From a virus (taxonomy: Duplodnaviria; Caudoviricetes), in the IMG/VR virus record IMGVR_UViG_3300038314_000675, positions 1-40,269 of that record: 40,269 nucleotides of DNA, one strand, 5' to 3'. This document shows, one piece after another, positions 2 to 40,269 of this stretch. Every line of letters begins with the position of its first letter. Within the stretch, counting starts at the first letter, position 1. Below the pieces are notes generated by a model. It did no database searches. It was given only the letters and a program-made list of their open reading frames with translations, and was not told the origin of the DNA. The position numbers and the translations under genes were made by a program.

Positions 2-99
2 AGTGATCGGCGATTTCCTCGCGCCGCTGACGCACAAGCTGTTCGCCGGCGCCCTCGGCATCGCGCTGGTCGCAATCGGCATCCTCTGGTGGGCAAACG
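2..99. repeat. Terminal direct repeat, left copy (circular-assembly overlap)
   Basis: Bases 2-99 are identical to 40172-40269. The preceding base differs (T at 1, C at 40171). Confidence 0.95.
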
Positions 100-6161: not shown

Positions 6162-6287
6162 GTGATTGAACCTCTCATTTTCACGCGCAAAGACGAACGC
6201 TCGCGCCTAGGCGATTACCTCACTGGCGCGGTTGCTGGCGGCATTCTTGTCGCAGCCGCTTATCTGATCGTGATGGTGGCGGGATGA
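6162..6287 (+). CDS. 41-aa membrane peptide (not in ORF track)
   Basis: AGGAG RBS and GTG start. MIEPLIFTRKDERSRLGDYLTGAVAGGILVAAAYLIVMVAG, ATGA-coupled to the next gene. Confidence 0.65.
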   Translation: MIEPLIFTRKDERSRLGDYLTGAVAGGILVAAAYLIVMVAG

Positions 6288-6652
6288 TAAAGCCTCCCCT
6301 TCAAAGGTGGACGCGCAAAGACGCCGAAGAGGCTGGTCGTCTTTGGCAAGCCAATGTGCCGGCCGAACAAATCGGGCAACGCTTGGGCCGATCGCGCTGC
6401 GCTGTCATCGGCAAACTGCACCGCATGGGTCTTCTGGGCATGGAACTTGCCCGCAAGCGCGTGCGAGACGGAAGAATTGCCAAGCGCTATAGCGAGGGCG
6501 CGCGCGCCGATGAACTGGCCATGGTCTATGGCCTGTCGGCGTCTAGGGTTACCGCTATCGCGCGCCTATACGATGTCAGGCGCGGCGCTGGTCGGCCTCC
6601 CATTCGCAAAAAGCCTCCCATGCCGCAGCAGCGCCAAGCGCAACGCAAGTAA
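6284..6652 (+). CDS. GcrA-like cell-cycle regulator domain plus second HTH
   Basis: WT...LWQANVPAEQIGQRLGRSRCAVIGKLHRMGL matches the GcrA N-terminal HTH. A second HTH-like segment follows (ADELAMVYGLSASRVTAI). Confidence 0.75.
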   Translation: MIKPPLQRWTRKDAEEAGRLWQANVPAEQIGQRLGRSRCAVIGKLHRMGLLGMELARKRVRDGRIAKRYSEGARADELAMVYGLSASRVTAIARLYDVRRGAGRPPIRKKPPMPQQRQAQRK

Positions 6653-6998
6653 AGCACCCGGCGGACTGCGCCGCCTGCAGATATTCCATCTGGCCATCCT
6701 GCCACTTGCTTTGCGTATGGTCACGGCGCTTCAACTCGCACACGAATGCGGGCGCGCCCGGCACGATGATGTCGCTGGCGCCTTTCGAAAGGCCCTCGAG
6801 CTTGTGCTTCTGCATTGCGGAAAACTGACCGCCGATCAGCTGGCCCTCATTGCGCGGGTGCACCGCCAGCAAGCCGTAGCTATCGGGATATTCCTTGCGG
6901 ATCTTGCTGAAGAATGACGCCTGCTCGACGTGTTCCTTGTGGCACTTGCCGCGGAACGACGTGTCGCCGTAGACGGGGATCGTTTTGGGGAGGATCAT
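6576..6998 (-). CDS. VRR-NUC family nuclease / resolvase
   Basis: E..EQ, HPRNEG, G..DII, ELKR and Q..YL PD-(D/E)xK pattern. Located downstream of the helicase. Confidence 0.8.
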   Translation of the reverse strand: MILPKTIPVYGDTSFRGKCHKEHVEQASFFSKIRKEYPDSYGLLAVHPRNEGQLIGGQFSAMQKHKLEGLSKGASDIIVPGAPAFVCELKRRDHTQSKWQDGQMEYLQAAQSAGCFTCVALGAAAAWEAFCEWEADQRRA

Positions 6999-7007
6999 CA
7001 CACAGTC
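6994..7007. repeat. 14-bp direct repeat ATCATCACACAGTC, copy 1 (other copy 7668-7681)
   Basis: Identical 14-mers bracket the MTase-1 gene exactly at its start and stop. Confidence 0.85.
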
Positions 7008-7675
7008 CCTTCGATAAACAGGTCGCCTTGGCGTTGGGCCTCTTCGATACGCCTGCAAGCAATATCGAAATACTTCGGCTCGCGCTCAATACCGATAAAG
7101 TCGCGGCCCATCTGAACGGCTGCTACGCCGGTGGTGCCGCTGCCCATGAATGGATCGAGGATGGTTCCGGGCACTTTGCGCAAAAGCATCTTCATCAAGC
7201 CTACGGGCTTCTCGGTCGGATGTTGCCGCCCATTTTTCGCCATGCTTTGGACGGGGGGGTGCCTAACCACTGAACCGCTGTCTCGCGAGCCGATGAAGCC
7301 CTTTCCTAAAACGTAGATTTCTTCGTGGTCTGGCTTCCACGGGATGGATAAGTCGCCCATACCAAGGGCTCCGCCTTTGTCCCAGATAAGAACCATTTTT
7401 GTCGCGGCGGGGCGGCGGATGCGCCAAGTACCGAAGCAAAGTGTTGGGATGTCACCCGCCCAATCCAGAACGCTATCGCGTGCTTCTGTGGTCTCGTCGC
7501 CGACAATGGTCCGTCCAGCAACCCAAAGCGTGTCCGTTGCGTGGCCTGACTTGTAGGCCATCCCATAAGGCGGATCAGTCACCACGGCATCCACCTTCGG
7601 GAGCGTCGGCAGAATGTCCCGGCAGTCACCGCAATACAGGGTTGCCCGTCCAATCTTTACCGGTTCTATCATCAC
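6998..7675 (-). CDS. Beta-class N6A/N4C DNA methyltransferase 1
   Basis: DPPY (motif IV), HPTEKP, then ILDPFMGSGTTG (motif I). Confidence 0.92.
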   Translation of the reverse strand: MMIEPVKIGRATLYCGDCRDILPTLPKVDAVVTDPPYGMAYKSGHATDTLWVAGRTIVGDETTEARDSVLDWAGDIPTLCFGTWRIRRPAATKMVLIWDKGGALGMGDLSIPWKPDHEEIYVLGKGFIGSRDSGSVVRHPPVQSMAKNGRQHPTEKPVGLMKMLLRKVPGTILDPFMGSGTTGVAAVQMGRDFIGIEREPKYFDIACRRIEEAQRQGDLFIEGTV

Positions 7676-10130: not shown

Positions 10131-10327
10131 ACCGGCTTCACCGCCCCCACGTCCCATGCGTGTCCCGTCAATCCCCACCGTAGCTGCGCGGGCGTGTACT
10201 CGTGGCGATCGTCGATGCGCCCATTTGCGAATTGCACGCGCAGCTTCGTTTCCTTCGGCATCAAGTCGGGATAGGTGCCGGGGTTCTTGTGGAAGCCGGG
10301 TGCGGGGATTGGCTGGGGAGGGGTCAT
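10127..10327 (-). CDS. Hypothetical protein
   Basis: ATGA coupling at both ends. Confidence 0.65.
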   Translation of the reverse strand: MTPPQPIPAPGFHKNPGTYPDLMPKETKLRVQFANGRIDDRHEYTPAQLRWGLTGHAWDVGAVKPV

Positions 10328-11055
10328 AGGATGAATAAGTCCTTTTGCCGCTGGGCGTCCTCAATGCGCTTGCAAGCGATGTCGAAATACTTGGGTTCGC
10401 GCTCAATACCGATGAAATCGCGGCCCATTTTAACGGCTGCTACGCCAGTGGTCCCGCTGCCCATGAAGGGGTCTAGGATGGTTTGGTCTACGTCGGTCAA
10501 TTTATCGACGTTCCACTTCATCAGGTTTAGCGGTTTTTGCGTCGGGTGATCGACCTTTCCCGGCTGTCCGAAGCGGTAACTGTCAGCCTCGAAACGGTTA
10601 AAGTCGTATTGTCCGCCATTCCAAGACCTTCCAGGCAGGTAGCCATAAACTGCTTGCTCCACAGATTGCGCAAACCCCGCGCCGGGAGCAGAAGGTGGTG
10701 GGCAACGCTTCGACCAGAACAGAAGGCGCGTGGAATATCCGCGCTCCTCAAGCATGGCAGTTAGTGGACCGATCTGCCGATGCCCGCACCACGCGATGAC
10801 GGTTTTAGGTTCCGAAGCGATGGCGAGGGAATAGGCATCCACGACTAAGCCAGTCATCGCGGCCCAATCGGTATCGCCAGCGAAGAAGTCGAGGTTGCGA
10901 ACACCCTTGCCGGGTTGCGAAATAACCTTCGCGCCCGCGACACTGACAGAATATGGCGGGTCCCCAATCACCGCGTCCACCTTGCCCAGTGTCGGCAGAA
11001 TGTCCCGGCAGTCCCCGCAATACAGCGTGGCGCGTCCAATTTTTACCGGTTCCAT
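10324..11055 (-). CDS. Beta-class N6A/N4C DNA methyltransferase 2
   Basis: DPPY, HPTQKP, ILDPFMGSGTTG. Start re-assigned to ATG 11055 (TGATG coupling). Confidence 0.92.
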   Translation of the reverse strand: MEPVKIGRATLYCGDCRDILPTLGKVDAVIGDPPYSVSVAGAKVISQPGKGVRNLDFFAGDTDWAAMTGLVVDAYSLAIASEPKTVIAWCGHRQIGPLTAMLEERGYSTRLLFWSKRCPPPSAPGAGFAQSVEQAVYGYLPGRSWNGGQYDFNRFEADSYRFGQPGKVDHPTQKPLNLMKWNVDKLTDVDQTILDPFMGSGTTGVAAVKMGRDFIGIEREPKYFDIACKRIEDAQRQKDLFIL

Positions 11056-11924
11056 CACGTCACCTTCCAATAGCTGCTTGCCTTGCCGCGGTACGGCTCG
11101 AGGTCCACCCCAGAGCAATGATCCTTCACGACCTTCGCGTAGGACACCGCGCCCGGGCGATCTACCAAGGAAACCTTCCGCCCCGCGACCAGCGCGTTCT
11201 TGCCGCCGGCCATGTCGGTGATTTCCGCCAGCAAATCCTTCTTGCGTTCCGCCAGGCGCTCCATCTGTTCGGCAATGTCATCCCATTCCGCCATCGCCTT
11301 GTGCGCCGCCGGGGTGTCGATTGTGACGCGCTTGGGAGCCAGGTGGTCGTCGGGGTTGTTCTCGAGCTCGTGCAGGAACTCGGCATGGAACTGGCGCAGG
11401 CGGGGGATGTTGTCGGCAACCCAGTCGCCATCGGGCTTGATCACGCGGTGATGCGTGCCATTCGGCGCCCATTGGAAGAACGACCACCATTCGCGCCCGG
11501 TCACCCAAAGCGTGAATTGCACCTGCGCATAGTAGTGCGGCTGGTCTTCGATCGTCTTGAATTCGACGGGCGCCTCGGCTTTGCGCAGGCCATACGGGCA
11601 CTTGATTTCGACGCCGCCCTTTTCCCCGACAAGCCCGTCGGGCGACACGCCTGCCCAGTCCTCGTGCGGGATGAAGCCGACCTCTTCTACCTCGTGCAGC
11701 GTCTCGATCCGGTAATCGATCATCGCGCCGGGTTCGTTGTTCGTGCCCCATTCGGTCGCCACGTTGCCTTGAAATTCGCGCTCGGCGCCAAGGCTTTCGC
11801 GGACCATGGCGCGCATTGCGTTATCGCGGGTCATGTAGGGGTTGAGGCCAAGGATCGCGCCGACCATGCTGGCGGTGACGCGGTTCTTGCGGGCTTCGAA
11901 CCATTCGGGGCTGCGTTGCTTCAT
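11055..11924 (-). CDS. YqaJ/lambda-exonuclease family protein
   Basis: QRSPEWFEARKNRVTAS, SPDG, EIKCP, YYAQVQ. Start ATG 11924. Confidence 0.92.
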   Translation of the reverse strand: MKQRSPEWFEARKNRVTASMVGAILGLNPYMTRDNAMRAMVRESLGAEREFQGNVATEWGTNNEPGAMIDYRIETLHEVEEVGFIPHEDWAGVSPDGLVGEKGGVEIKCPYGLRKAEAPVEFKTIEDQPHYYAQVQFTLWVTGREWWSFFQWAPNGTHHRVIKPDGDWVADNIPRLRQFHAEFLHELENNPDDHLAPKRVTIDTPAAHKAMAEWDDIAEQMERLAERKKDLLAEITDMAGGKNALVAGRKVSLVDRPGAVSYAKVVKDHCSGVDLEPYRGKASSYWKVT

Positions 11925-17458: not shown

Positions 17459-17645
17459 TGCGTCGCGTTTGTCGACGTTTTTGCGTCGCGTTTGTCGACG
17501 GTAAAAAAGGGTGTTTTGGGGCTGATTTGGCAAAAAACGTCGACATTCGTCGATTGCCCGGGAAGGAATAAAAAACTCTCTTTTTTTTATATTCTGCACA
17601 TACGGGGATACGGCACCCCTACTAAATCGTCGTTTGTCGACGGTT
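17459..17645. repeat. Iteron-like repeats with AT-rich tract (putative replication origin)
   Basis: 19-bp direct repeat TGCGTCGCGTTTGTCGACG at 17459 and 17482, inverted partial copy 17533-17545, partial copy 17631-17643, A/T tracts 17568-17592. Confidence 0.65.
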
Positions 17646-17667
17646 TTAGGTTTTGAAAGGAAACGGA

Positions 17668-22775: not shown

Positions 22776-23102
22776 ATGACCACCGAAGAAATCGCCAAGG
22801 GCACGGTTGCTGAAATCAGCGAACGCCTGCCGATCCTCGCCGGCTGGGAACTGGCCGAATTGCATGATCTGGAGGAAGCCAAGGACAATCCCCGGGTAAC
22901 GCTGCTCGATGCCATCCACCGCGAACAGGACGCGCGCAAGGAAGCTGCGGGCGGTGTGCCGCTCGACGCTGCCATGAAGGCCGAATATGACCGCGGCCGC
23001 ATGGCATACCGGCGCGGCATCGCTGAGGACCAGTGCCCCCACGGCGCCGGGCCGCGGCGTGATGCGTGGGCCGAAGGTTGGCGTTTCCAGGCGGGGTCGT
23101 GA
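22776..23102 (+). CDS. Hypothetical protein with C-terminal Rmf/CrpP-like motif
   Basis: YDRGRMAYRRGIAEDQCPH...RDAWAEGWR resembles RMF (RGYQAG..G.SKEMCPY...W..GWR). Confidence 0.6.
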   Translation: MTTEEIAKGTVAEISERLPILAGWELAELHDLEEAKDNPRVTLLDAIHREQDARKEAAGGVPLDAAMKAEYDRGRMAYRRGIAEDQCPHGAGPRRDAWAEGWRFQAGS

Positions 23103-23492
23103 ATGCCCCTCTACGATTTCCGCTGCGATAACGAGCACCGCTTCGAACGGTTCGTGTCGCTGTCGAATTATGGCAACCCGCAATCCTGCGAATGCGGGGC
23201 ACCCGCGTCCCGTGTCCCCTGCGCGCCGACGGTTATTTCGGACGCCATCCCGCCCACCCGCGGCGCCGATGGCAAAATTCACGAAAGCCGCGCATCCCTG
23301 AACTTTTCGCTGACGCCGGAAGGCAATCCCAAGGGCGAACGGTATCACCAGCTGGGCAGCGACGAACAGCTGCCTGCTTTCAAGGCTCCCGAATTCGATG
23401 AAGGCAAGCGGCGCGATGATATTCGCAAGTCGCTGGCCGACATCAAGGCAGGGCGCACCCCTCCAGCACCCGTGACAGGAATTCCAGCATGA
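23103..23492 (+). CDS. FmdB-family zinc-ribbon protein
   Basis: MPLYDFRC..EHRFE...CECG...RV..AP signature. Confidence 0.8.
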   Translation: MPLYDFRCDNEHRFERFVSLSNYGNPQSCECGAPASRVPCAPTVISDAIPPTRGADGKIHESRASLNFSLTPEGNPKGERYHQLGSDEQLPAFKAPEFDEGKRRDDIRKSLADIKAGRTPPAPVTGIPA

Positions 23493-24760
23493 ACGACATT
23501 GCGCAAACCATCGAATCCAACTCGACCGTTCTCGAGCCCGTGGAAGCGCCCGCTGCAAGCGGTGGCGGCACGCCGGATATTCCTGCCGATGACGCGGGAA
23601 AGCCCGACAAGCCCGAAGACGTGCGCGATTCGATCGCCAAGGCGTTGAAGGCATCGGATGCCAAGACTGCCGAAGCCAAGGCCAAGGAAGCCGGGGAGGA
23701 TCCGAAAGACGCCAAGGAAGGAAAGCCCGCCGATGACGCCGACGCCGCCGAAAAGCCCGATGGGGATAAAGATGGCAAGGCCGAAGGAAAGGCGGGCAAA
23801 GCCGCTGAAGACGGCGCCGAATCCGCGAAAGCGGGCAAGGCCGACGACGGCAAGCCTGTAGAGGGCAAGGGCGAAGCGGCTAAGGCTGAAGCGGAAGGTG
23901 ACGACGGCAAGGAAAACGGCAAGGGCAAACCTGCGCATTACCAGCCGCCGAAGAACCTCCTTCCTGATGCACGCGAAAAGTGGACGAACGTGCCGCGGGC
24001 GGTGCAGCGCGACATCGAAAACATGACGCGCGAGCACGACGCCAAGGTGCAGGAACTGACCAAGGCGACCGAACGCTATGAAGCGGTGCGCGAATTCGAT
24101 GAGCTGGCGCAGTCGAACGGCCGGGAACTGCGCGAAAGCCTGGGACGGATGCACGAAATCGAAAATCTGATACAGGAAAACCCCTATGCCGGGCTGAATG
24201 CCATCCTGCAGGAAATCGGGCCGCGCAAACCGGACGGCTCGCCGGTGTCGCTGCTCGAGGTGTCGAAATTCATCGCGCAGCAGGGCGACGACGGCTGGCA
24301 GCAGCTGGTGGCTGCGCGTCCTCAGCAGCAGCAACAGCAGCAGCAGCCGGATCCCCAGGTGGCGCATCTGCAGCAGCAGATCGCGAAGATGCAGGTCGAC
24401 CATACGGCGGCATCGGTGATCGAACCTTTCAAGGCGGGGCATCCCCGCTATGACGAATTGAAAGGGGATATTGCAATGTTCCTGAAATCCGGTAGGATAC
24501 CAGCCAGCTTGAGCGCGCAAGACCGGCTCGAAGCGGCGTATGACATGGCTGAGCGGCTGAACCCGCCTTCGAATGGCAACGCTGCATCGCCCGATGCGAG
24601 CCTTGAACCTGACCGTCGCGTTGACCCTGCCAAGGGCTCCAGTGGCTCACTCTCCATCAAGTCAGCGCCGGGTTCGGTTACCGAAAACAAAGAACCTGAT
24701 CGCGGTGGCGACATTCGCGACATGCTCGCCCGCAATATGCGAAAGGCTGGCAGGTCCTAA
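23489..24760 (+). CDS. Capsid scaffolding protein
   Basis: Directly upstream of the MCP, with a low-complexity acidic N-terminus, coiled coils and a poly-Q tract. Confidence 0.7.
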   Translation: MNDIAQTIESNSTVLEPVEAPAASGGGTPDIPADDAGKPDKPEDVRDSIAKALKASDAKTAEAKAKEAGEDPKDAKEGKPADDADAAEKPDGDKDGKAEGKAGKAAEDGAESAKAGKADDGKPVEGKGEAAKAEAEGDDGKENGKGKPAHYQPPKNLLPDAREKWTNVPRAVQRDIENMTREHDAKVQELTKATERYEAVREFDELAQSNGRELRESLGRMHEIENLIQENPYAGLNAILQEIGPRKPDGSPVSLLEVSKFIAQQGDDGWQQLVAARPQQQQQQQQPDPQVAHLQQQIAKMQVDHTAASVIEPFKAGHPRYDELKGDIAMFLKSGRIPASLSAQDRLEAAYDMAERLNPPSNGNAASPDASLEPDRRVDPAKGSSGSLSIKSAPGSVTENKEPDRGGDIRDMLARNMRKAGRS

Positions 24761-27671: not shown

Positions 27672-29597
27672 ATGGCCTACGCACGACGCCCGACCCGCCC
27701 CAAGCCCCGTAACGCACAGACCCGCAAATGGCCTGCGCCGGTTGCCGGCTGGGTATCCAATCGAATGCTGTCCGATCCCAAGTCGATTGAGGGCCCGGGA
27801 GCTGCGGTGCTCGACAATTTCTTTCCGCGCGCGACCGGGGTCGCACTGCGACGCGGCAAAGCGCGGTATGCCACGCTGGTGGACAAGGAACTCGATGTCG
27901 AATCCCTGTTCACCTATCACAATGGCACTGTCGAACGCATGTTCGCGGCCAACGCGACGACGATCTATGACGTGTCCAGCGTCGTGTTTCCCGAACCGCT
28001 CGACCTGGCAACTGAAACCAGCCCGACCGATGACGTCGACACGCTGGGCGATGGTACTGGCGATGTTTTCGGCTGGGATAGCACCGCGGGGCTCGAGGTT
28101 TCGGAAGGGTACACCTCCGGCCAGTGGTCAGTCATCCAATTCGCCACGACGGGAGGGATTTTCCTGATCGGCGTGAACGGCGAAGACACCGGCTTTATCT
28201 ATGACGGGACGCGCTTCTATCCGAACATTGCGGGCGGCCTGTGGTGGCTGGCATTCGACACGGAAAGCGGCGCGTTCACCGTGGGCGAAACCGTCACCGG
28301 TGGGACGTCCGGCGCGACTGGCGTTATCGTGGAGGTGGACAGCGACGGCTCGGCCGGTACGCTGCTACTGCGCGACGTTACCGGAACCTTCGAAGACGAT
28401 GAAGCATTGACCGACGGCGCGACCGGCGCGGCCACGGCCGACGGCACGCAAACCAGCGCGGTGCCTGGCATGGATTTCGGGGACCTAACCAGCGCCGATA
28501 TGTCGTTCGTTTGGGCCTACAAGAACCGGCTGTATTTTACCGAAAAGGAAAGCCTGTCCGCGTGGTATCTGCCTGTCGACAGCATCGGCGGCACGGCCAC
28601 CGAATTCCCGATGGGCGGTGTTTTTTCCAACGGCGGCGCACTGATGTTCGGGCAGCGGTGGTCGCTTGAGGCGGGCGGTTCCGGCGGCTTGTCCGAACAG
28701 AACATTTTCGTCACGACCGAAGGCGAGGTCGCCATTTATCAAGGGTCGTTCCCGGGCGATGCGTCGACTTGGGGGCTGGTCGGCGTGTACCGCATCGGAT
28801 CCCCGCTGGGCCGGCGCGCATACCTACGCGGGGGCGGTGACTTGGCGATCGCCACGACCGTGGGGCTGGTGCCGCTGTCGAAAGCCATTTCGCTTGATGT
28901 GACCGCGCTCAACGTCGCCACGATCAGCTACAAGATTGCCGACGCCTGGACCGATGCGGTGCGGCTGCGGGGCGAGCAAAACTGGCAGTGCATGATCTGG
29001 CCGGAAAAGAAGATGGCGCTGATCGCGCTGCCCGACATGATTGGCTCGAGCGATCCGGTGATGTTTGTCAGCAACACCGAGACGGGCGCATGGGGCCGCT
29101 ATACCAACTGGCAGGGCCTGTGCATGACCGTGTTCGGCGGCCAGCTTTATTTCGGTTCCCCGAACGGCGAAATCTACCAGGCGGAAGTCGGCGGGCTGGA
29201 TGACGGCGAAACCTATTCCGGCGCGGTCGTCCCGCTGTTCGACGACATGGAATTTTCCGCAGGCGCCAAGGTCGGCAAAATGGCCCGCGCCCGCGTGCGC
29301 GCCTCTACCGAGATTGTGGACAGCGTATCGCTGCTGGCGGATTTCGATATTTCTTTGCCCCCCGCACCGGATGCCACGCCGGTTTTTGCTTCGAACCAAT
29401 GGGGCACCGGTGTGTGGGGGCAATCCGTCTGGGGCTCGGCTGTGCCGAACGTCCTTAACCAACCGTGGCGCTCCGCGGGGACGATCGGCTATTCGATCGC
29501 GCCTTGCTATCAGGTGACAAGCGGGGCGCCCGCGCCGCTTGATGTCGAGTTGATCGACTTCGAAACGCTCTACAACATTGCCGAGGCGGTTACTTAG
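27672..29597 (+). CDS. Tail nozzle / packaged-DNA stabilization protein
   Basis: 641-aa beta-rich protein (PAPVAGW, LDNFFP, YKNRLYF) after the adaptor. Confidence 0.7.
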   Translation: MAYARRPTRPKPRNAQTRKWPAPVAGWVSNRMLSDPKSIEGPGAAVLDNFFPRATGVALRRGKARYATLVDKELDVESLFTYHNGTVERMFAANATTIYDVSSVVFPEPLDLATETSPTDDVDTLGDGTGDVFGWDSTAGLEVSEGYTSGQWSVIQFATTGGIFLIGVNGEDTGFIYDGTRFYPNIAGGLWWLAFDTESGAFTVGETVTGGTSGATGVIVEVDSDGSAGTLLLRDVTGTFEDDEALTDGATGAATADGTQTSAVPGMDFGDLTSADMSFVWAYKNRLYFTEKESLSAWYLPVDSIGGTATEFPMGGVFSNGGALMFGQRWSLEAGGSGGLSEQNIFVTTEGEVAIYQGSFPGDASTWGLVGVYRIGSPLGRRAYLRGGGDLAIATTVGLVPLSKAISLDVTALNVATISYKIADAWTDAVRLRGEQNWQCMIWPEKKMALIALPDMIGSSDPVMFVSNTETGAWGRYTNWQGLCMTVFGGQLYFGSPNGEIYQAEVGGLDDGETYSGAVVPLFDDMEFSAGAKVGKMARARVRASTEIVDSVSLLADFDISLPPAPDATPVFASNQWGTGVWGQSVWGSAVPNVLNQPWRSAGTIGYSIAPCYQVTSGAPAPLDVELIDFETLYNIAEAVT

Positions 29598-29613
29598 GGG
29601 TAGCCTGCCTCGC

Positions 29614-30027
29614 ATGGCAATCACCTTGGCAAGCGGCGATCGCGTCGCGCAATTCGTTTCCGATCGGCTGGGTATGGCCCTATGCCCGCCCTTTACGGCG
29701 TTGGGGCTCGAGCGCGATGGCGTACTCATTGGCGGCGCGCTGTTCAATTCCTTCGAAGGCGCTGACGTCCATGTCACGGTTGCCGGGCGTGGGTGGACGC
29801 GCGGCTTTCTGCGCGCGGTGGGGCATTACGTCTTCGAACAGATCGGCTGTTGCCGGATGACGTTCACCAGCGAGCACCGGCCCGTGATCAAGTATGCCTG
29901 CCGCCTTGGCGGGCAAATCGAAGGCGCGCTGCGCGATCATTACGGCCCCGGGCGCGACGGTGTGATAGTGGGGGTCTTGCGGCGGGAGTGGAAGTTCGGT
30001 AAGGATGGTGCGTCCAAGCGCGGTTGA
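29614..30027 (+). CDS. GNAT-fold acetyltransferase-like tail assembly protein
   Basis: YVFEQIGCCRMT...RLGGQIEGALRDHYG resembles RimJ/RimL GNAT. Typical position between nozzle and ejection genes. Confidence 0.7.
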   Translation: MAITLASGDRVAQFVSDRLGMALCPPFTALGLERDGVLIGGALFNSFEGADVHVTVAGRGWTRGFLRAVGHYVFEQIGCCRMTFTSEHRPVIKYACRLGGQIEGALRDHYGPGRDGVIVGVLRREWKFGKDGASKRG

Positions 30028-30065
30028 ACTCCCTCACGCGCTTTCCGGTAATGGAAAGCGAGAGT
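30016..30065 (+). promoter_or_regulatory. Structured leader element, copy 1 (candidate cis-regulatory RNA)
   Basis: 26-nt identity (30018-30043) with 35637-35662. Two overlapping hairpins directly before ATG 30066. Confidence 0.6.
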
Positions 30066-30884
30066 ATGAAGACCCCCAAGCCGCCCCCCGCTCCCGATCC
30101 CGTAAAGACTGCGCAGGCACAGGCCGGGGTCAACCTGTCCACTGCCATGGCGCAGCAGAACATGAACATGATCGGGCAGGTGAACCCGTGGGGCACGGTC
30201 AATTATACCCAGAACGGCAACACGCGGTTCCGCGATAGCTTCGGCAACTGGGTTGAAATTCCGCAATATACGCAGACCACGACGTTCACGCCCGAACAGC
30301 AGGCGATCTTCGACAAGTCGCAGGGCGCGCAATCGAACCTTGCAGGCATCGCGCAGGACCAGTCCGCGCGCATTGCCGATACGCTTTCGGATCCGTTCGA
30401 ATTCAATAACCAGGACGCGGCAGACTGGGCCTATGATCTGTCCATGTCGCGCCTGCGTCCTGAAATGGAAAACCGGCAGGAAGCCCTGCGGTCGCAACTG
30501 ATCAACTCGGGCCTGCGCCCGGGAACCGACGCCTACGGCACCGAAATGAGCCGCATCGGGCAGGTTGACAACGACATGATGAACCAGCTGATGCTGCAGG
30601 GACGCGGGCAGGCGTTCTCCGAACAGCTGGCCACGCGCAATCAGCCGCTGAACGAATTGTCGGCGCTGCTGTCCGGTTCGCAGGTATCGAATCCCGCTGG
30701 CATGTCTGGCCCCACCCCGCAGACCAGCGTGGGCGGTGTCGATTACAGCGGCATGGTGCAGAACAATTACAACAACCAGATGCAGCAATATAACGCGCAG
30801 ATGCAGAACCGCGGCGGAATGCTCGGCGGCCTGTTCGGGCTGGCTGGTTCACTGGGCGGCGCTGCCATCCGTGGGGGTTTCTGA
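30066..30884 (+). CDS. Internal virion / DNA ejection protein
   Basis: KTPKPPPAPDP N-terminus, Q/N/G-rich, C-terminal Gly-rich hydrophobic segment (GGMLGGLFGLAGSLGG). Confidence 0.65.
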   Translation: MKTPKPPPAPDPVKTAQAQAGVNLSTAMAQQNMNMIGQVNPWGTVNYTQNGNTRFRDSFGNWVEIPQYTQTTTFTPEQQAIFDKSQGAQSNLAGIAQDQSARIADTLSDPFEFNNQDAADWAYDLSMSRLRPEMENRQEALRSQLINSGLRPGTDAYGTEMSRIGQVDNDMMNQLMLQGRGQAFSEQLATRNQPLNELSALLSGSQVSNPAGMSGPTPQTSVGGVDYSGMVQNNYNNQMQQYNAQMQNRGGMLGGLFGLAGSLGGAAIRGGF

Positions 30885-31600
30885 TGGCTTTGGCGCCCAT
30901 CCCGGCTGGCGTTGCGCAGGTTGTCGATCCTGTCGCCCAGGCGCTGACGCCCGCCGAGCCCTTCGTGTGGGGGCACGGGGGGCTGAAGATGACGCCGCAG
31001 CAAGCGGCAATGATGCGCGAACGCGGCCAACAACGGATGCGCGGCGATTATTCGCCCGTGCAGCATTGGACGCAGGGCCTTGCCCGCGTGGCTGACAACG
31101 TGCTGGGCGCACTTGAGGCCAAGAAAGCAGACAAGGCGCTCGAGGAAGGCGCGGCTGCCGATCGCGCGCTAATGGAAGCTATGGTGTCGGGCGGTGTCGA
31201 TGACAGCATGATCGCCCGCGCGCTGATGGATCCGAACGTGGGCGAAGGCGTGCGCCAGTTTGCGGGCATGGAATACCAGCGGAGGCAGCCGGCCAAGGCG
31301 CCCGCGCCCACCGATATTGAAAAGCTGATGATGGCGCGCGGTATCGAGCGCGGTTCCGATGTGTGGAACAAGACGCTTGACGCGGCGATCACTGGCAAAA
31401 CCGATCCTTTCACCGTGCTGCAGACCGGAACGGGGACGTTCATGGGCCCGCAGTCACTTGTCCAACAGGCTTTGCAGGAAGGAGGTGGTCCTACATCTGG
31501 GGCGCCGGCTGGGGGTGAGCCCCCGGCGGTGCTTCCCCCCGATTTCTTCGACGACAACGGGGGAGGTGGTGGCGGCAACGTCACCGATCCCTTTCGCTGA
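30884..31600 (+). CDS. Internal virion / DNA ejection protein
   Basis: TGATG-coupled, WTQGLARVA motif, ends with a Gly linker and DPFR*. Confidence 0.65.
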   Translation: MALAPIPAGVAQVVDPVAQALTPAEPFVWGHGGLKMTPQQAAMMRERGQQRMRGDYSPVQHWTQGLARVADNVLGALEAKKADKALEEGAAADRALMEAMVSGGVDDSMIARALMDPNVGEGVRQFAGMEYQRRQPAKAPAPTDIEKLMMARGIERGSDVWNKTLDAAITGKTDPFTVLQTGTGTFMGPQSLVQQALQEGGGPTSGAPAGGEPPAVLPPDFFDDNGGGGGGNVTDPFR

Positions 31601-31982
31601 TGCCTCGCGGCTCGACGCCATCACCATGCAAGCGGAAAGCGGCGGCCGCCGATATGGCACCGGCGGCGGATTGCTTCGGTCGCCCGTCGGCGCAATGGGT
31701 GAAATGCAGGTTATGCCCGCCACCGCACGCGACCCGGGCTTCGGCATCCGCCCGTGGGATGGTTCGTCGCCCGACGACTTGGCGCGCGTTGGCCGGGACT
31801 ATCGCCGCGCGATGGAACGCCGCTATGATAGCGACCCGGCGAAAATGTGGGCGGCTTACAACGCTGGCCCCGGGCGCGTCGATGATCTGCTCGAGCGGTA
31901 TGGTAACGACTGGCTCCGCTATGCGCCCGCTGAAACCCGCAATTACGTGACGCGCAATCTCCGCGCATTGAAAGGCAGCTGA
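31566..31982 (+). CDS. Lytic transglycosylase (SLT) domain; start unclear, possibly frameshift-fused to the upstream gene
   Basis: AESGG (catalytic Glu), GAMGEMQVMPATA, AAYNAGPG and ETRNYV motifs. Confidence 0.85.
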   Translation: MVAATSPIPFADASRLDAITMQAESGGRRYGTGGGLLRSPVGAMGEMQVMPATARDPGFGIRPWDGSSPDDLARVGRDYRRAMERRYDSDPAKMWAAYNAGPGRVDDLLERYGNDWLRYAPAETRNYVTRNLRALKGS

Positions 31983-34900
31983 TGGCTGAAACGAAAGAAT
32001 ACGGCGGCTTCACCTACGTTCGGCAGGCCGATGGTTCGTGGGCGCGCCAGGATCAGCCCCAGGTGTTCTACCAAGATCCGTCGGCGGTGCGCGGTGAACA
32101 GCGCGCTGACGAAGATCAGGCGATGGAACGCGAGCGTCTGCGCATGGCGCGGGAAGAGGCTGCGCGCTCTGCGCGAGCGGAAACCCGCACCGAAGCGGAA
32201 TTCGCGCAAGAACAGGCCGAAGCCGCAGAGTTGCAGAGAACGCAGGCAGCATCGGACCGCAACCGGCTCGCGCAGATTTCCGCGATTCTCGACACGATTG
32301 ATCGTCTGGAAGCCCAGACCGGTGATGGGAGCGGAATTGGCAGCATTGAGGGTCAAGAAGACTTCCGCACTGGCGATCGTTATATGGGCGCTTCGCAGTT
32401 CTTCAATCAGGATGCGAACACCGTGTACGGCCTGCTCGAGCAGGTGCAGGGCGACATGACGCAGCAAGTGCTGGCACAGCTTGTCAAGGACAACGGTGGG
32501 ACTGGTGCCAGCGGTATGGCCAACACGGCTGCGGAAGCGGCGCGCATGGCTGCGGCCATCGCTCCACTCAACCAGAACATGGATCCTACGCAATTCGCAG
32601 CGGGGCTCAAGAAGGCGCGAGAATACTACGAGCGGCTGCAGTCGTCCTTGGCGGGTGAAGACCAAGCACCCAACCTGCCCGAAATGAGCGAAGAATATCA
32701 GCGCGAATTGACCGGGAACCCTCCCCCCGCCGATCGCACGCTGGCCGGACAGGGTGCGACCACGACGACCTATGAACTGCCGCAGGAATACCAGGACCGG
32801 CACGCGGCCTATCTGCGCCAGAACTGGGGCAACATCACGCCGGACGGCTACGCGCAGTTTCGCGCGGGGCTTGACAATGAGTTTCCGGACGTAGCTTCGC
32901 CCGACCTCGAAGCGTACCGCGCGATTGCGCCTGCATTCAATCAGGCGGCGGCGGAAGGGCAGCTTCCCGAAGACATGGGCGCGGTGCCCGGCGCGGAGCG
33001 CGAGCTTTCGGGGCTCGAACAGGGCGTCAACAATTTCGTCACGGATCCGCTGGGGACGGGACTCACTTCGGCCATCAACAGCGCGACCTTCGGTGTGCCC
33101 GACCGGCTGGCCGGACGCCGCCTTCAGGCCGCTCAGGAATTGAACCCGAAGGCGGCGTTCGCTGGCGATCTTCTGGGCGGTACGGTTGGTTCGAGCCTCG
33201 GCATCGCAGGTGCCACGATGGCAGGCGCCGGCCGGTTTGCTCCGCTGGTCGGGGACGCGCTTTATGGCACCACGTTTGGCGCACTGTCGGACGATGACCC
33301 GGTGACGGGTGCGCTGATCGGCGGCGCGGGGGCGCTGGTTGGCGATCAGGTCGGGAAATATGGCGGCCGGGCGATTGCTCGGATGCGCTCGCCGGACGAT
33401 CCACTGTCGGAAGGCGGCCGCGCGATCATGGAAACCGTGGGCGATCAGGACGAAGTGATCGACGCGCTGACCCGCGCGCAAACGCTTGGCGTGCCGATGA
33501 CGCTGGCCGATGCTTCGCCGGAACTGCAATCGCTGGCGGGCTCGGCTGTGCGCTTCTCGCCCACCACGGCGGGGCAGGCGCGGCAAACCATGGCGATGCG
33601 CAACGAGGGGCAGCTTGACCGGCTAGCCGAAGCTGTAGAACGCGACCTCGGGCCGGTGTCGAACATTCCGCAGCGCAGCGCAGACCTTTCCGCGCAGGCC
33701 AAGGCGAACGCCGGGCCGCTGTATGATTATGCCTATGACGCGCCCGGCGCGGCCGATGTCGACATCATGGACCTGATGGGCCGGCCGACGTTCAAGGCCG
33801 CGATGAAGGAAGCGTATCGCGAAGCGGCTGACGAAGGTGTCGATCCCAGCATTCTCGGTTTCGTCATGGACGAAGCCGGCGAGGTGGGGATTAATCCCGA
33901 TGCGTTCGGCGGTGTTCGCCGCGCAACGGTGAATGCTGAAAGCAATATCCTGCAGCCGCGCACGATTCGCGCCTATGGCGGCCGCGAAGTGGTCAAGCAA
34001 GGTCCTCTAGATCTTGTGGGGTGGCTCCGCACGCAAGGCGGCCTGCGTGATAGCGGCGGCGAGCTCTCGAGCATGGGGCTGACGAATAAGGCGCGCGGCA
34101 AAGGCGCTGAATTGGTCGGGCGCGAATCGGAATTCGGGCCGCTGGTCAATCCCGAAGACGGGATGGATTTCGACACGGCCGCGCTTTACGCTTGGGAAGC
34201 CGGTTATTTCCCCGAACTGAGCGAACGGCCGGACATCAACACGTTTCTTGACGCCATGCGCGACACCGCGGACGGTGTTTCGCAGCGGTTCAAGGTCGAC
34301 GATCTGCCCGAAGTCGAAGCATTCCGCGCAGCGCGTGGCAGCAATAACGAAATCCGCAACGCAAACGCCTTGGATGGCGGCATGTGGGAGGATGTTTCGC
34401 AGCCGGCAGGGATGCGCGAGGCTGCGCCTGCCGAAGCTTATGGCAGCGAACAGGTCGTGGGGCTCGACTGGCGCGGGCTCGATTATATCAAGCGCGGGCT
34501 CGACAATGTGATCGAAAGCAACACGTCGAAAATCGACGGCGCCAATCCCGACGCGCGCCGTGCGGCGATCATGAAAAACACGCTCGTGGGCCGAATGGAT
34601 GCGATCAATCCTGAATATGCCGCTGCGCGGCAGGCTTATGCCGGCCCGATGCAGGAACGCGCGTTCCTTTCGCGCGGCCAAGACGCCATCACCGCGCGCC
34701 CCGATGAACTGTCGGTCGAACTGGCGAACCTGACACCGGAGCAGCGCCAGCAAATGCAGCTGGGTTTCCAGTCGGAAATCATGGGCCGTGCGGGCAACCT
34801 GCGGAACAACAGCAACCCGTGGGCGCAGATCAACACGCCGAACGCGGAAGGGCGCATGGGCGCGCTGTATGAAGGCACCGAAGATGCCGACATCGCGCGG

Positions 34901-35344
34901 CTGCTCGACCAGCGGGACTTGGAATTGCAGCTTGCGGGCAGCGCGAACCGCCTGATTGGCAATAGCGCCACCGCGGAACGCGAGATTGCCGACGAATTTT
35001 TCAAGCAGCGCACCGGCATGGGCGCCGATGTTGGCATGGGTATTATCGAAACCGGCGCGCTGGGCGGGCCGTGGATGACTGTCGGCAAGAGCGTAGCTGA
35101 TCGCGTGTTCAAGGATCGCCGCGAACAGGCCGCTGCTGCAGCCAACCGCGCGCTTGCCGATGATCTGGGCCCGCTGCTGCTATCGGATGGCCCGCAAGGC
35201 GGCATCGACGCGCTGAGCGGCATGGCGGCGCAGGACGCCGACTATCAGGCGATCGTGGAGGCTTTGCTGGAAAGCGGGGACCGTTACGGCCGCCAGGCGG
35301 GCACCGCGGCAAGCGGCGCACTTGCAAACCGATACGGTTACTAG
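31982..35344 (+). CDS. Large internal virion / DNA ejection protein
   Basis: 1120 aa, helical A/G-rich with Gly-rich hydrophobic segments, last of the ejection cluster. Confidence 0.7.
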   Translation: MAETKEYGGFTYVRQADGSWARQDQPQVFYQDPSAVRGEQRADEDQAMERERLRMAREEAARSARAETRTEAEFAQEQAEAAELQRTQAASDRNRLAQISAILDTIDRLEAQTGDGSGIGSIEGQEDFRTGDRYMGASQFFNQDANTVYGLLEQVQGDMTQQVLAQLVKDNGGTGASGMANTAAEAARMAAAIAPLNQNMDPTQFAAGLKKAREYYERLQSSLAGEDQAPNLPEMSEEYQRELTGNPPPADRTLAGQGATTTTYELPQEYQDRHAAYLRQNWGNITPDGYAQFRAGLDNEFPDVASPDLEAYRAIAPAFNQAAAEGQLPEDMGAVPGAERELSGLEQGVNNFVTDPLGTGLTSAINSATFGVPDRLAGRRLQAAQELNPKAAFAGDLLGGTVGSSLGIAGATMAGAGRFAPLVGDALYGTTFGALSDDDPVTGALIGGAGALVGDQVGKYGGRAIARMRSPDDPLSEGGRAIMETVGDQDEVIDALTRAQTLGVPMTLADASPELQSLAGSAVRFSPTTAGQARQTMAMRNEGQLDRLAEAVERDLGPVSNIPQRSADLSAQAKANAGPLYDYAYDAPGAADVDIMDLMGRPTFKAAMKEAYREAADEGVDPSILGFVMDEAGEVGINPDAFGGVRRATVNAESNILQPRTIRAYGGREVVKQGPLDLVGWLRTQGGLRDSGGELSSMGLTNKARGKGAELVGRESEFGPLVNPEDGMDFDTAALYAWEAGYFPELSERPDINTFLDAMRDTADGVSQRFKVDDLPEVEAFRAARGSNNEIRNANALDGGMWEDVSQPAGMREAAPAEAYGSEQVVGLDWRGLDYIKRGLDNVIESNTSKIDGANPDARRAAIMKNTLVGRMDAINPEYAAARQAYAGPMQERAFLSRGQDAITARPDELSVELANLTPEQRQQMQLGFQSEIMGRAGNLRNNSNPWAQINTPNAEGRMGALYEGTEDADIARLLDQRDLELQLAGSANRLIGNSATAEREIADEFFKQRTGMGADVGMGIIETGALGGPWMTVGKSVADRVFKDRREQAAAAANRALADDLGPLLLSDGPQGGIDALSGMAAQDADYQAIVEALLESGDRYGRQAGTAASGALANRYGY

Positions 35345-35589
35345 AAGAACAGCGCCACCAGCAACAGCATGACGGCGAGGGCAGCGATTATCCGCCCCTC
35401 GCCGTTGTCTGTGGCGGCGCGGTAACCAGCCATGTAGGCAAGGCGTCTGCGCTCATCGGAATAGCGGTTGACGGCTTCCTTGCGGGCTTTCATCAGGCCG
35501 CGGCGGCGCAAGTATTGCTCGCTGTCGCTTTCTTCAAAGCGTGCGCGGGTCAAGTCCCGCTCGATCTGCTCTATGGATGGCTGCGCCAT
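35341..35589 (-). CDS. Antisense moron-like membrane-anchored protein
   Basis: 82 aa, C-terminal TM helix (IIAALAVMLLLVALFF), own promoter, opposite to the late operon. Confidence 0.65.
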   Translation of the reverse strand: MAQPSIEQIERDLTRARFEESDSEQYLRRRGLMKARKEAVNRYSDERRRLAYMAGYRAATDNGEGRIIAALAVMLLLVALFF

Positions 35590-35596
35590 AGGGGTA

Positions 35597-35625
35597 TTGC
35601 TAGCACGCGCGGGCCTGTGCTACAA
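35597..35625 (-). promoter_or_regulatory. Promoter for the antisense moron (probably leaderless)
   Basis: TTGTAG-17 nt-TAGCAA, ATG 7 nt downstream with no SD. Contains the TAGCAC/GTGCTA inverted repeat. Confidence 0.45.
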
Positions 35626-35636
35626 GCGTTTGAACC

Positions 35637-35689
35637 GCGCGGTTGAACTCCCTCACGCGCTTGGATCTTGATCTAAGCGGAGTTGGCAT
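35637..35689 (+). promoter_or_regulatory. Structured leader element, copy 2 (candidate cis-regulatory RNA)
   Basis: Same 26-mer as copy 1, followed by a different-sequence hairpin overlapping the GGAG RBS before TTG 35690. Confidence 0.6.
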
Positions 35690-36466
35690 TTGCCCCGTAA
35701 TTCATCCGGCGATTATTCCCTGCCAGCAGGTTCGCTCGTTAGCACGGGCGACACGCTGCTGGTGAGCCAGCACAATCCGCCCTTCCAGGACATTGCCAAT
35801 TCGATTTCGTCGTCGCTCGATCGCGATGGGCGCGGCGGGATGCGCGCAAACCTGACGATGAACGGCAACAAGGTCACGGGCATCGGGGAAGCCACCGACC
35901 CATCGGACGCGGTTGCGCTGTCTCAGCTTTCCGCGATCACCGGCGTGCCGATCGGCGCGTGCATCGATTATTTCGGCACTACGCCGCCAAGCGGATACTT
36001 GTTCGCTGCAGGGCAGGAAATCTCCCGCGCCACCTACGCTTCGCTGTTCGCAATCATCGGGACGACCTATGGCAGTGGCGACGGATCCACGACGTTCAAC
36101 CTGCCCGATACGCGCGGCCGGGTTTCCGCTGGGCGCGAAGACATGGCCACGCCGGCTACCACGAGGCTGAATAATTTCTCGAGCTCAACGCTTGGCGCTG
36201 GGTTCGGTTCGCAGTCGCACACGCTGACGTCTGCGCAAATGCCGACGCATACACACACCGTCACCGATCCTGGGCACACGCACAGCTATAGCGGGGCGAC
36301 CGGGGCGGTGGCGGCTGATGGCGTAAATACCGTGGCCCGGGTCGGCGCTGGCCAAACCACCGGCAGCAGCACGACCGGCATCACGATTGGCAACGCGGGC
36401 AGCGGGAACGCACACAACAATACCCAGCCGACCCTCATCACGAACAAGATCATCAAGGTAAGCTGA
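35690..36466 (+). CDS. Tail fibre protein with phage tail-collar domain
   Basis: VPIG...PPSGYL...GQEISRATYASLFAIIGTTYGSGDGSTTFNLPD.RGR collar motif and H-x-H repeats. Confidence 0.88.
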   Translation: MPRNSSGDYSLPAGSLVSTGDTLLVSQHNPPFQDIANSISSSLDRDGRGGMRANLTMNGNKVTGIGEATDPSDAVALSQLSAITGVPIGACIDYFGTTPPSGYLFAAGQEISRATYASLFAIIGTTYGSGDGSTTFNLPDTRGRVSAGREDMATPATTRLNNFSSSTLGAGFGSQSHTLTSAQMPTHTHTVTDPGHTHSYSGATGAVAADGVNTVARVGAGQTTGSSTTGITIGNAGSGNAHNNTQPTLITNKIIKVS

Positions 36467-40042: not shown

Positions 40043-40176
40043 TTGGCGACAACATCGGCCCGCTGATCTGGCGTGGCATCAAGAGCCGGGTGCGCGGCGT
40101 TGTCGCCGATTACTGGCTGATCGCGCTGGCGCTCGTGCTGTTCTTCGCCGGGCTCTGGGCGGGAGGCTGGCAGTGA
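40039..40176 (+). CDS. 45-aa single-TM peptide
   Basis: GGAGG RBS, ATGA- and GTGA-coupled on both sides. MIGDNIGPLIWRG...YWLIALALVLFFAGLWAGGWQ. Confidence 0.6.
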   Translation: MIGDNIGPLIWRGIKSRVRGVVADYWLIALALVLFFAGLWAGGWQ

Positions 40177-40269
40177 TCGGCGATTTCCTCGCGCCGCTGA
40201 CGCACAAGCTGTTCGCCGGCGCCCTCGGCATCGCGCTGGTCGCAATCGGCATCCTCTGGTGGGCAAACG
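40172..40269. repeat. Terminal direct repeat, right copy
   Basis: Identical to 2-99. Confidence 0.95.

What the first reader, a model, noticed from the sequence alone, without database searches (positions are those of the whole stretch)
30016..35692. Repeated, covarying two-state RNA leader in front of two virion genes: candidate new translational switch
Seen: the 26-mer GCGCGGTTGAACTCCCTCACGCGCTT occurs at 30018-30043 and 35637-35662, each time just upstream of a start codon (first ejection gene ATG 30066; tail fibre TTG 35690). It folds as P1 = GCGCG-gu-UGA[ACUCCC]UCA-CGCGC. The 3' arm of P1 can alternatively pair downstream as P2. P2 differs in sequence between copies but keeps its pairing: CGCUUUCC/GGAAAGCG in copy 1, and CGCUUGGAU-CUUG-AUCUAAGCG in copy 2. 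Both copies end AAGCG(A)GAGU. The P1 loop (A)ACUC(C) is complementary to that RBS segment (GGAGUU 35679-84, 6 bp; GAGU 30062-65, 4 bp), giving either a pseudoknot or an extended OFF stem. In copy 1 the upstream GNAT stop codon lies inside P1. Inference: a riboswitch-like or protein/sRNA-controlled element that tunes low-copy virion proteins. I do not recognise it as a known RNA family.
Basis: partly seen in the sequence, partly recalled or inferred. Interest (0 to 1): 0.85.

Follow-up and report, generated by a model that had tools for sequence, protein, structure and literature searches.

The report
Phage RNA switch for virion genes
Two genes for virion parts in this bacterial virus start with the same small RNA hairpin, kept with compensating base changes in dozens of relatives and also found inside the capsid-scaffold gene; it likely keeps these genes untranslated until a phage head-assembly protein binds it, a control link not found in the RNA libraries or papers searched.

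Summary
The 26-mer is real (30018, 35637). It belongs to an RNA hairpin with no Rfam match, carried by Brucella-phage-like podoviruses at three sites: the leader of the first ejection gene, the leader of the tail-fibre gene, and the 3' end of the scaffold gene (window 24615-24646). Its 5-bp outer stem covaries. In 49 of 49 the predicted resting fold destroys the hairpin and buries the ribosome-binding region. Host chromosomes gave only chance-level hits. Distant relatives use a different hairpin around the scaffold gene and, in three cases, in the same activating geometry. Best reading: an OFF-by-default translational switch opened by a phage RNA-binding protein, probably the scaffold or its upstream neighbour (like Mu Com/mom, with a P22-scaffold-type operator). 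The binder was not identified, and no expression data were found.

The parts
29977..30005 (+). sigma70-like promoter (TTGCGG-17-TAAGGA) inside the GNAT gene; predicted start of transcription about 6 nt before P1
   Evidence: sequence; inferred, not measured
30018..30041 (+). P1 hairpin, copy 1: outer stem 30018-22/30037-41, bulged A30036, G30023-C30035, 2x2 pyrimidine loop, G30026-C30032, loop AACUC
30039..30065 (+). P2/OFF stem, copy 1; uses the P1 3' arm and buries the SD-like GGAAAG (30053-58)
30066..30884 (+). first ejection/internal virion protein gene (PHROG 6121; ejection role inferred from gene order)
29578..30027 (+). GNAT-like gene (start uncertain; probably IVPA, the P22 gene 14 homologue of PMC10386132); its stop lies in P1 here
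35597..35626 (.). bidirectional sigma70-like promoter: + TTGCTA-17/18-(C)TACAA(G); - TTGTAG-17-TAGCAA
   Evidence: sequence; inferred
35341..35589 (-). 82-aa ORF with hydrophobic C-terminus, probably leaderless from the divergent promoter; conserved in close relatives
35637..35660 (+). P1 hairpin, copy 2 (identical to copy 1)
35646..35684 (+). OFF fold, copy 2: P2 35658-66/35671-79 extended by AACUCC/GGAGUU over the SD GGAG (35679-82)
35690..36466 (+). tail fibre/collar gene, TTG start
24615..24646 (+). third, diverged P1 copy in the 3' end of the scaffold gene, about 160 nt before the capsid start; no promoter or SD
   Evidence: weak by model alone (14.1 bits, E 0.71); identified by position shared with relatives
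24553..24566 (+). small 4-bp hairpin over the RLNP codons of the scaffold gene (suggestive only)
23489..24760 (+). scaffold-like gene (PHROG 25516; all-helical model); candidate binder
23103..23492 (+). 129-aa family-wide small protein with an N-terminal zinc ribbon here (Pfam PF09723, 32.6 bits, just under the 34.4 cut-off); candidate binder

Best explanation
Each 26-mer is the conserved hairpin of an RNA leader that lies just behind a promoter-like sequence and is predicted to refold over the ribosome-binding site, so the ejection and tail-fibre genes are likely silent until a phage protein, probably the scaffold or its upstream neighbour, binds the hairpin and holds it. Steps. (1) Shown in sequence: promoter-like element, P1, and an overlapping OFF stem in front of both genes and in 49 leaders. 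(2) Computed: P1 forms first on the growing RNA (probability 0.97-0.99 for copy 1) and collapses to 0.00-0.12 once the SD region is made. (3) Inferred: a protein reads the invariant core (bulged purine, 2x2 pyrimidine loop between two pairs) and pays the roughly 7 kcal/mol needed to keep P1, which shortens P2 and frees the SD. (4) Inferred: the hairpin began as an operator of the scaffold gene and was copied into these leaders, tying synthesis of low-copy virion proteins to head assembly. Within this model I put the scaffold at about 45%, the 23103-23492 protein at about 35% and another protein at 20%.
For: Covariation: 5 of 5 outer pairs change on both sides; the inner 8-23 pair is G-C in 65 and A-U in 4 of 69; 11-20 is G-C in 69 of 69. 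With no pairing required, 185 of 190 stem positions pair in 38 leaders, with 12 G-U and 1 A-C on the + strand. Model R1 found copies it was not built from at the same three sites; 43 of 45 whole-record matches map there. Promoter in 42 of 49 leaders, 0 of 30 scaffold copies, 1.4% of 20,000 random places. OFF fold dominant in 49 of 49, median cost of P1 7.3 kcal/mol. The OFF stem invades the P1 arm by 2 nt or more in 40 of 48, with arm GC:GC in 30 and CG:CG in 3; five leaders without such overlap use a 10-11-bp loop-to-SD helix instead. Tail-fibre genes with the leader start with ATG in 5 of 18 against 75 of 87 without, and have a terminator-like hairpin in 0 of 18 against 38 of 87. Host chromosomes: all 11 matches in 5 genomes lie in the prophage; 33 other matches in 151 genomes are about chance, and none of 28 inspected has a promoter. 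Distant relatives carry a second hairpin class in the scaffold 3' end, over the scaffold SD, and in activating geometry before ejection or tail genes in L031, L053 and L168.
Against: No binder was identified. The 23103-23492 family is nearly universal (118 of 127 loci), so co-occurrence does not discriminate, and its zinc ribbon is missing in many hairpin-bearing phages. Neither candidate has a set of residues specific to this hairpin type (0 and 1 columns). Forcing P1 raises the mean unpaired fraction of the SD only from 0.12 to 0.32 (up in 47 of 49), so the ON state is modest in the model. The scaffold-internal copy has no SD to control, and that region is no more stable than synonymous shuffles (mean z 0.2). 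Two hairpin classes coexist in Tb, JY13 and L205, so there may be two readers. Sequences are related, so counts overstate independent events, and A5 was partly chosen by the register it tests.
Confidence: 0.6

Rival explanations
1. P1 marks an RNA cleavage or processing site for a phage or host nuclease. A cut 3' of P1 would remove the anti-SD arm in the leaders and would free a capsid mRNA from the scaffold message.
For: One action explains all three sites, including the scaffold copy with no SD.
Against: No nuclease candidate in the late region. The second hairpin class sits directly on the scaffold SD, which fits occupancy better than cutting.
Confidence: 0.13
2. P1 is a nut/put-like loading site for antitermination that each internal promoter needs; hiding the SD is a secondary safeguard.
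For: P1 is promoter-proximal. Relatives without the leader often have a terminator before the tail-fibre gene (38 of 87). The 23103-23492 model has weak likeness to RbpA, an RNA polymerase binder (Foldseek E 0.13 or worse; Z 4.2, rmsd 2.8, 46 aligned, tied with aRF1).
Against: The OFF pairing is aimed at the SD in several independent designs. The main late transcript carries its copy deep in a gene. The fold matches are a generic zinc ribbon.
Confidence: 0.12
3. No phage protein is involved: a host factor, a metabolite, temperature or folding kinetics sets a low rate of translation.
For: P1 forms first and could give a short window for ribosome entry. Weak start codons point to deliberately low expression.
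Against: No host leader carries the motif. Kinetics or heat would not need an invariant internal loop or a copy inside a coding region.
Confidence: 0.1
4. The 26-mer is a DNA site (operator, activator box or recombination repeat).
For: The two window copies are identical and lie just downstream of promoters.
Against: Stems change on both sides; G-U outnumbers A-C 12 to 1 on one strand; copies within one genome often differ in stem sequence; downstream anti-SD pairing is kept.
Confidence: 0.04

Closest known systems
Phage Mu Com / mom translational activation (PMC6483171, abstract and introduction read)
   Same: A phage protein binds a short hairpin next to a translation-inhibition structure and exposes the start signals; a small zinc-binding candidate is encoded here too.
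   Different: Different RNA motif; targets are virion genes, each with its own promoter; the zinc ribbon is not kept in all hairpin-bearing phages; binding is not shown.
Post-transcriptional autoregulation of the P22 scaffolding protein (titles seen in reference lists; mechanism recalled, paper not held)
   Same: RNA operators at the scaffold gene of a P22-like podovirus; in relatives a hairpin covers the scaffold SD.
   Different: This window has no hairpin at the scaffold start, only at the 3' end; the leaders have activating geometry and control other genes.
Phage bIL66 Orf1 activation of abiD1 translation (PMC2661086, abstract read)
   Same: One phage protein binds a structural motif at several translation initiation regions and raises translation.
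   Different: Unrelated host and motif; that motif is used by a host defence gene.
Rfam GP20-a / GP20-b (named in earlier finding e1-9704857; not in the main text of PMC5737381)
   Same: Conserved RNAs beside phage scaffold-type genes.
   Different: No match to these or any Rfam family.
Lambdoid nut/boxB and HK022 put sites (recalled)
   Same: Small promoter-proximal RNA hairpins on phage transcripts.
   Different: No boxA, GNRA-like loop or N-like gene seen; the alternative fold targets the SD.

Membership tests
Any Rfam family (riboswitches, GP20-a/b, C4, leaders) | match to a covariance model at the gathering score | tested here: not met
   0 matches in the window; best E 2.4-9.4 near the copies; only int-alpA elsewhere in three related genomes
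Com/mom-type activated leader | inhibitory structure over the start signals | tested here: met
   computed in 49 of 49 leaders
Com/mom-type activated leader | adjacent conserved hairpin that competes with the inhibitory structure | tested here: met
Com/mom-type activated leader | Com-family CCCC zinc finger encoded by the phage | tested here: not met
   no Com hit among 45 proteins scanned; a different zinc ribbon (PF09723) is present but not in all hairpin-bearing phages
Com/mom-type activated leader | protein binding raises translation | not testable with these tools
   needs reporter and binding assays
P22-type scaffold autoregulation | RNA site at the scaffold translation start | tested here: not met
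   absent in the window; the second hairpin's loop motif is at the start in 5 of 30 type I, 10 of 11 type III and 19 of 37 type II loci
P22-type scaffold autoregulation | free scaffold binds the RNA | tested here: inconclusive
   trees and column tests do not separate scaffold from its neighbour
Metabolite riboswitch | occurs in host leaders of genes tied to one metabolite | tested here: not met
   (151 genomes, a sample, strict filters)
Intrinsic terminator / attenuator | GC stem followed by a U tract | tested here: not met
   no U tract after P2 on the + strand; 0 of 18 leader-bearing tail genes
nut/put antitermination site | confers terminator read-through | not testable with these tools
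   needs transcription assays

The most novel reading that the evidence does not exclude
The capsid scaffolding protein is an assembly-state sensor: across this podovirus family free scaffold binds one RNA hairpin, represses its own gene where the hairpin covers the SD, and switches on ejection-protein and tail-fibre translation where copies of the hairpin have been moved behind internal promoters. This would be a dual-sign RNA regulon that times virion assembly.
Probability: 0.28. Interest if true: 0.85.

Novelty: new variant of a known kind. Interest (0 to 1): 0.7.

Why it matters
How double-stranded DNA phages match the amounts and timing of low-copy ejection and tail proteins to head assembly is little understood, and the RNA side of P22-type scaffold control is not settled as far as I recall. 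This element gives a 25-nt operator with natural compensatory variants, two short candidate binders and both repressing and activating layouts, so the question can be tested with reporters and gel shifts. It would also be a compact protein-triggered ON switch for alphaproteobacterial synthetic biology.

Tried and rejected
Rfam at both thresholds: nothing. Exact 20-mer scan of viral contigs: 0. RNA runs: no RNA holder listed. Pseudoknot: the loop helix (6 bp or more in 28 of 48) uses core bases. Coupling through the GNAT stop: 10 of 29. Antisense RNA trigger: stems differ between copies of one genome. Zinc ribbon as the required reader: absent in L016, L027, L041, L198, L205, L200, L192. Frameshift fusion of scaffold to capsid: the frame relation is not conserved. 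Capsid protein as reader is disfavoured: type I needs 2 changes on its tree against 1 on the 23103-23492 tree, but scaffold also needs 2, and adaptor and nozzle need 1, so linkage and kinship blur the test (FastTree, 78 rows, labels set by me). Extra stability of the scaffold hairpin against synonymous shuffles: none. The loose parser for C-G variants has a 25-28% background, so those variants are suggestive only. Structure searches gave no clear match for either candidate. The stock promoter scan found none because it demands a T at the last -10 position. Ten literature searches found no description of this element; supplements of PMC5737381 and PMC10386132 were not read and could list such motifs.
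Full report
Setting. The window is a whole 40.2-kb podophage genome with a 98-nt terminal repeat. Its structural genes follow the order of Brucella phage Tb and Mx8, the Mx8/Pr family of PMC10386132 (abstract, passages, sections 27 and 40 read). The closest prophages lie in Qipengyuania, Sphingopyxis, Rhizorhapis and Sphingobium, so a sphingomonad host is likely (inference).

Observation. The 26-mer is exact at both coordinates and unique; 0 of 100 shuffles reach two matches. P2 and the loop-to-SD complementarity are as described. Rfam has no match.

Homologues. I fetched 292 loci with the ejection and tail-fibre proteins (some are duplicates). A descriptor found 125 hits, 52 of them just before these two genes. 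The rest revealed a third site about 150 nt before the capsid start, inside the scaffold gene, also in phage Tb. There the 3' arm is read in different frames and with different residues, so protein sequence does not explain it. Model R1, built on 54 copies, recovered unseen copies at the same three sites. Model R2 matched 18 of 21 whole records, and by my coordinate mapping 43 of the 45 matches fall at the three sites. The window's own scaffold copy (24615-24646) is diverged (14.1 bits) but fits the pattern at the shared position. Anchored on the peptide alone, a loose pattern is met in 31 of 35 loci with capsid identity of 55% or more, against 28 of 105 control windows.

Structure. On 69 copies all five outer pairs change on both sides. 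The alternative register has 98.3% of cells paired, four G-C to A-U changes at pair 8-23 and an invariant G-C at 11-20, enclosing a 2x2 loop that is always pyrimidine, beside a bulged purine. A5 was partly picked with this register, but the four A-U copies were found by R1, which held none. Without any pairing filter, 185 of 190 stem positions in 38 leaders pair, with 12 G-U and one A-C. That points to a single-stranded fold of the + strand.

Transcription. A TTG/TTC-N3, 17-nt spacer, TA/CA element ends 10-14 nt before P1 in 42 of 49 leaders, 0 of 30 scaffold copies and 1.4% of random places; it is kept even inside the GNAT coding sequence. P1 would therefore lie near the 5' end of the transcript. 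No RNA run was listed, so this is inferred.

Two states. In all 49 leaders (a few near-duplicates) the equilibrium probability of P1 is 0.03 or less, and forcing it costs a median 7.3 kcal/mol; the SD's unpaired fraction rises in 47 of 49, but only from 0.12 to 0.32 on average. The OFF fold is built in two ways: a P2 stem that takes 2-5 nt of the P1 arm (40 of 48) and a helix from the P1 interior to the SD or start region (6 bp or more in 28 of 48). In the window P1 forms first and is lost as the SD region appears. A hairpin that is highly conserved yet predicted not to persist implies something that holds it. Leader-bearing tail genes have weak starts (ATG 5 of 18 against 75 of 87) and no terminator in front (0 of 18 against 38 of 87), as if this cassette replaced terminator control.

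Who reads it. Host chromosomes show only prophage copies or chance-level coding hits, which favours a phage factor. More distant relatives have a second hairpin class, strongly enriched and covarying in the same scaffold region. It also covers the scaffold and gp19-like SDs and stands in activating geometry before ejection or tail genes in L031, L053 and L168, while the L212 copy stays folded. The family thus centres its hairpins on the scaffold gene, which recalls P22 scaffold autoregulation (titles seen; mechanism recalled). Earlier unchecked notes of this scan report scaffold-flanking hairpins in other phage groups; they are leads, not support. The small upstream protein is the other candidate: zinc ribbon here, near-universal (118 of 127), and type I forms one clade on its tree. 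But the ribbon is dispensable, linkage confounds the trees, no type-specific residues emerged, and fold searches were unrevealing. The scaffold region shows no extra stability over synonymous shuffles, and both hairpin classes coexist in some genomes.

Comparison. It works like Mu Com/mom (PMC6483171, abstract, introduction and methods read) and bIL66 Orf1 (PMC2661086, abstract), but it is not a member of either: no Com gene, different motif. Aca-type RNA operators repress rather than activate (PMC13551039, passages). Ten searches found no description; subscription papers and supplements were not seen.

Verdict. The element is real, conserved and apparently undescribed. A protein-activated translational switch derived from a scaffold-gene operator is the best explanation (0.6); cleavage (0.13), antitermination (0.12), a host or kinetic switch (0.10) and a DNA site (0.04) remain. 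New variant of a known kind; interest 0.7.

Noticed in passing
L020:9800-9822, L204:3594, L201:2847, L116:1881, L021:7112, L213:6135; scaffold 3' ends of L036, L054, L113, L168, L220, L225: Second hairpin class (4-5-bp stem, loop CUCANAC). It covers the SD of the scaffold and gp19-like genes and occurs in 1-3 copies in the scaffold 3' end of distant relatives: 66 loop motifs in 12.5 kb against 30 in 932 kb elsewhere, 49 of 66 fully paired against 2 of 30. One exact 15-mer occurs in 93 viral stretches; 39 were assigned to gp19-like (26) or scaffold (13) starts. Absent from the window and from the Mx8 region scanned.
   Followed up: partly
window 24553-24566: Small hairpin over the scaffold RLNP codons; all 5 AGG codons pair with CCT. 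Base composition could contribute.
   Followed up: partly
window 35341-35626: Bidirectional promoter drives a conserved, probably leaderless 82-aa membrane-tailed ORF opposite the tail-fibre leader; possibly an exclusion or accessory gene (inference).
   Followed up: partly
L024:9426-10004, L002:5540-6151, also L015, L023, L199, L103, L107: Extra ORFs (HNH-like by recalled motifs, not tested against Pfam) are inserted between the leader and the ejection gene, which then has a new SD and often an ATC, ATT or TTG start.
   Followed up: no
window 6284-6652: GcrA-like protein (Pfam E 5e-8), also annotated in Tb and JY13; candidate activator of the promoters that lack the last -10 T.
   Followed up: no
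window 22776-23102: 108-aa ORF with a ribosome-modulation-factor-like stretch (Pfam RMF, E 1.3e-6) between portal and scaffold.
   Followed up: no
window 6998-7675 and 10324-11118: Two paralogous DNA methyltransferase genes, about 82% alike in parts.
   Followed up: no
window 17459-17502, 17631-17652: Short direct repeats after the primase gene, a possible origin or control region.
   Followed up: no
window 2-99 and 40172-40269: 98-nt terminal repeat, consistent with a circular assembly of a complete genome.
   Followed up: no
L030, L115, L116 upstream of the ejection gene; L028:9943; L125:9948: Promoter plus SD-hiding leaders of other or diverged sequence, suggesting the same design arose more than once.
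   Followed up: no
L020:34939-35004: Rfam int-alpA RNA in Brucella phage Tb.
   Followed up: no
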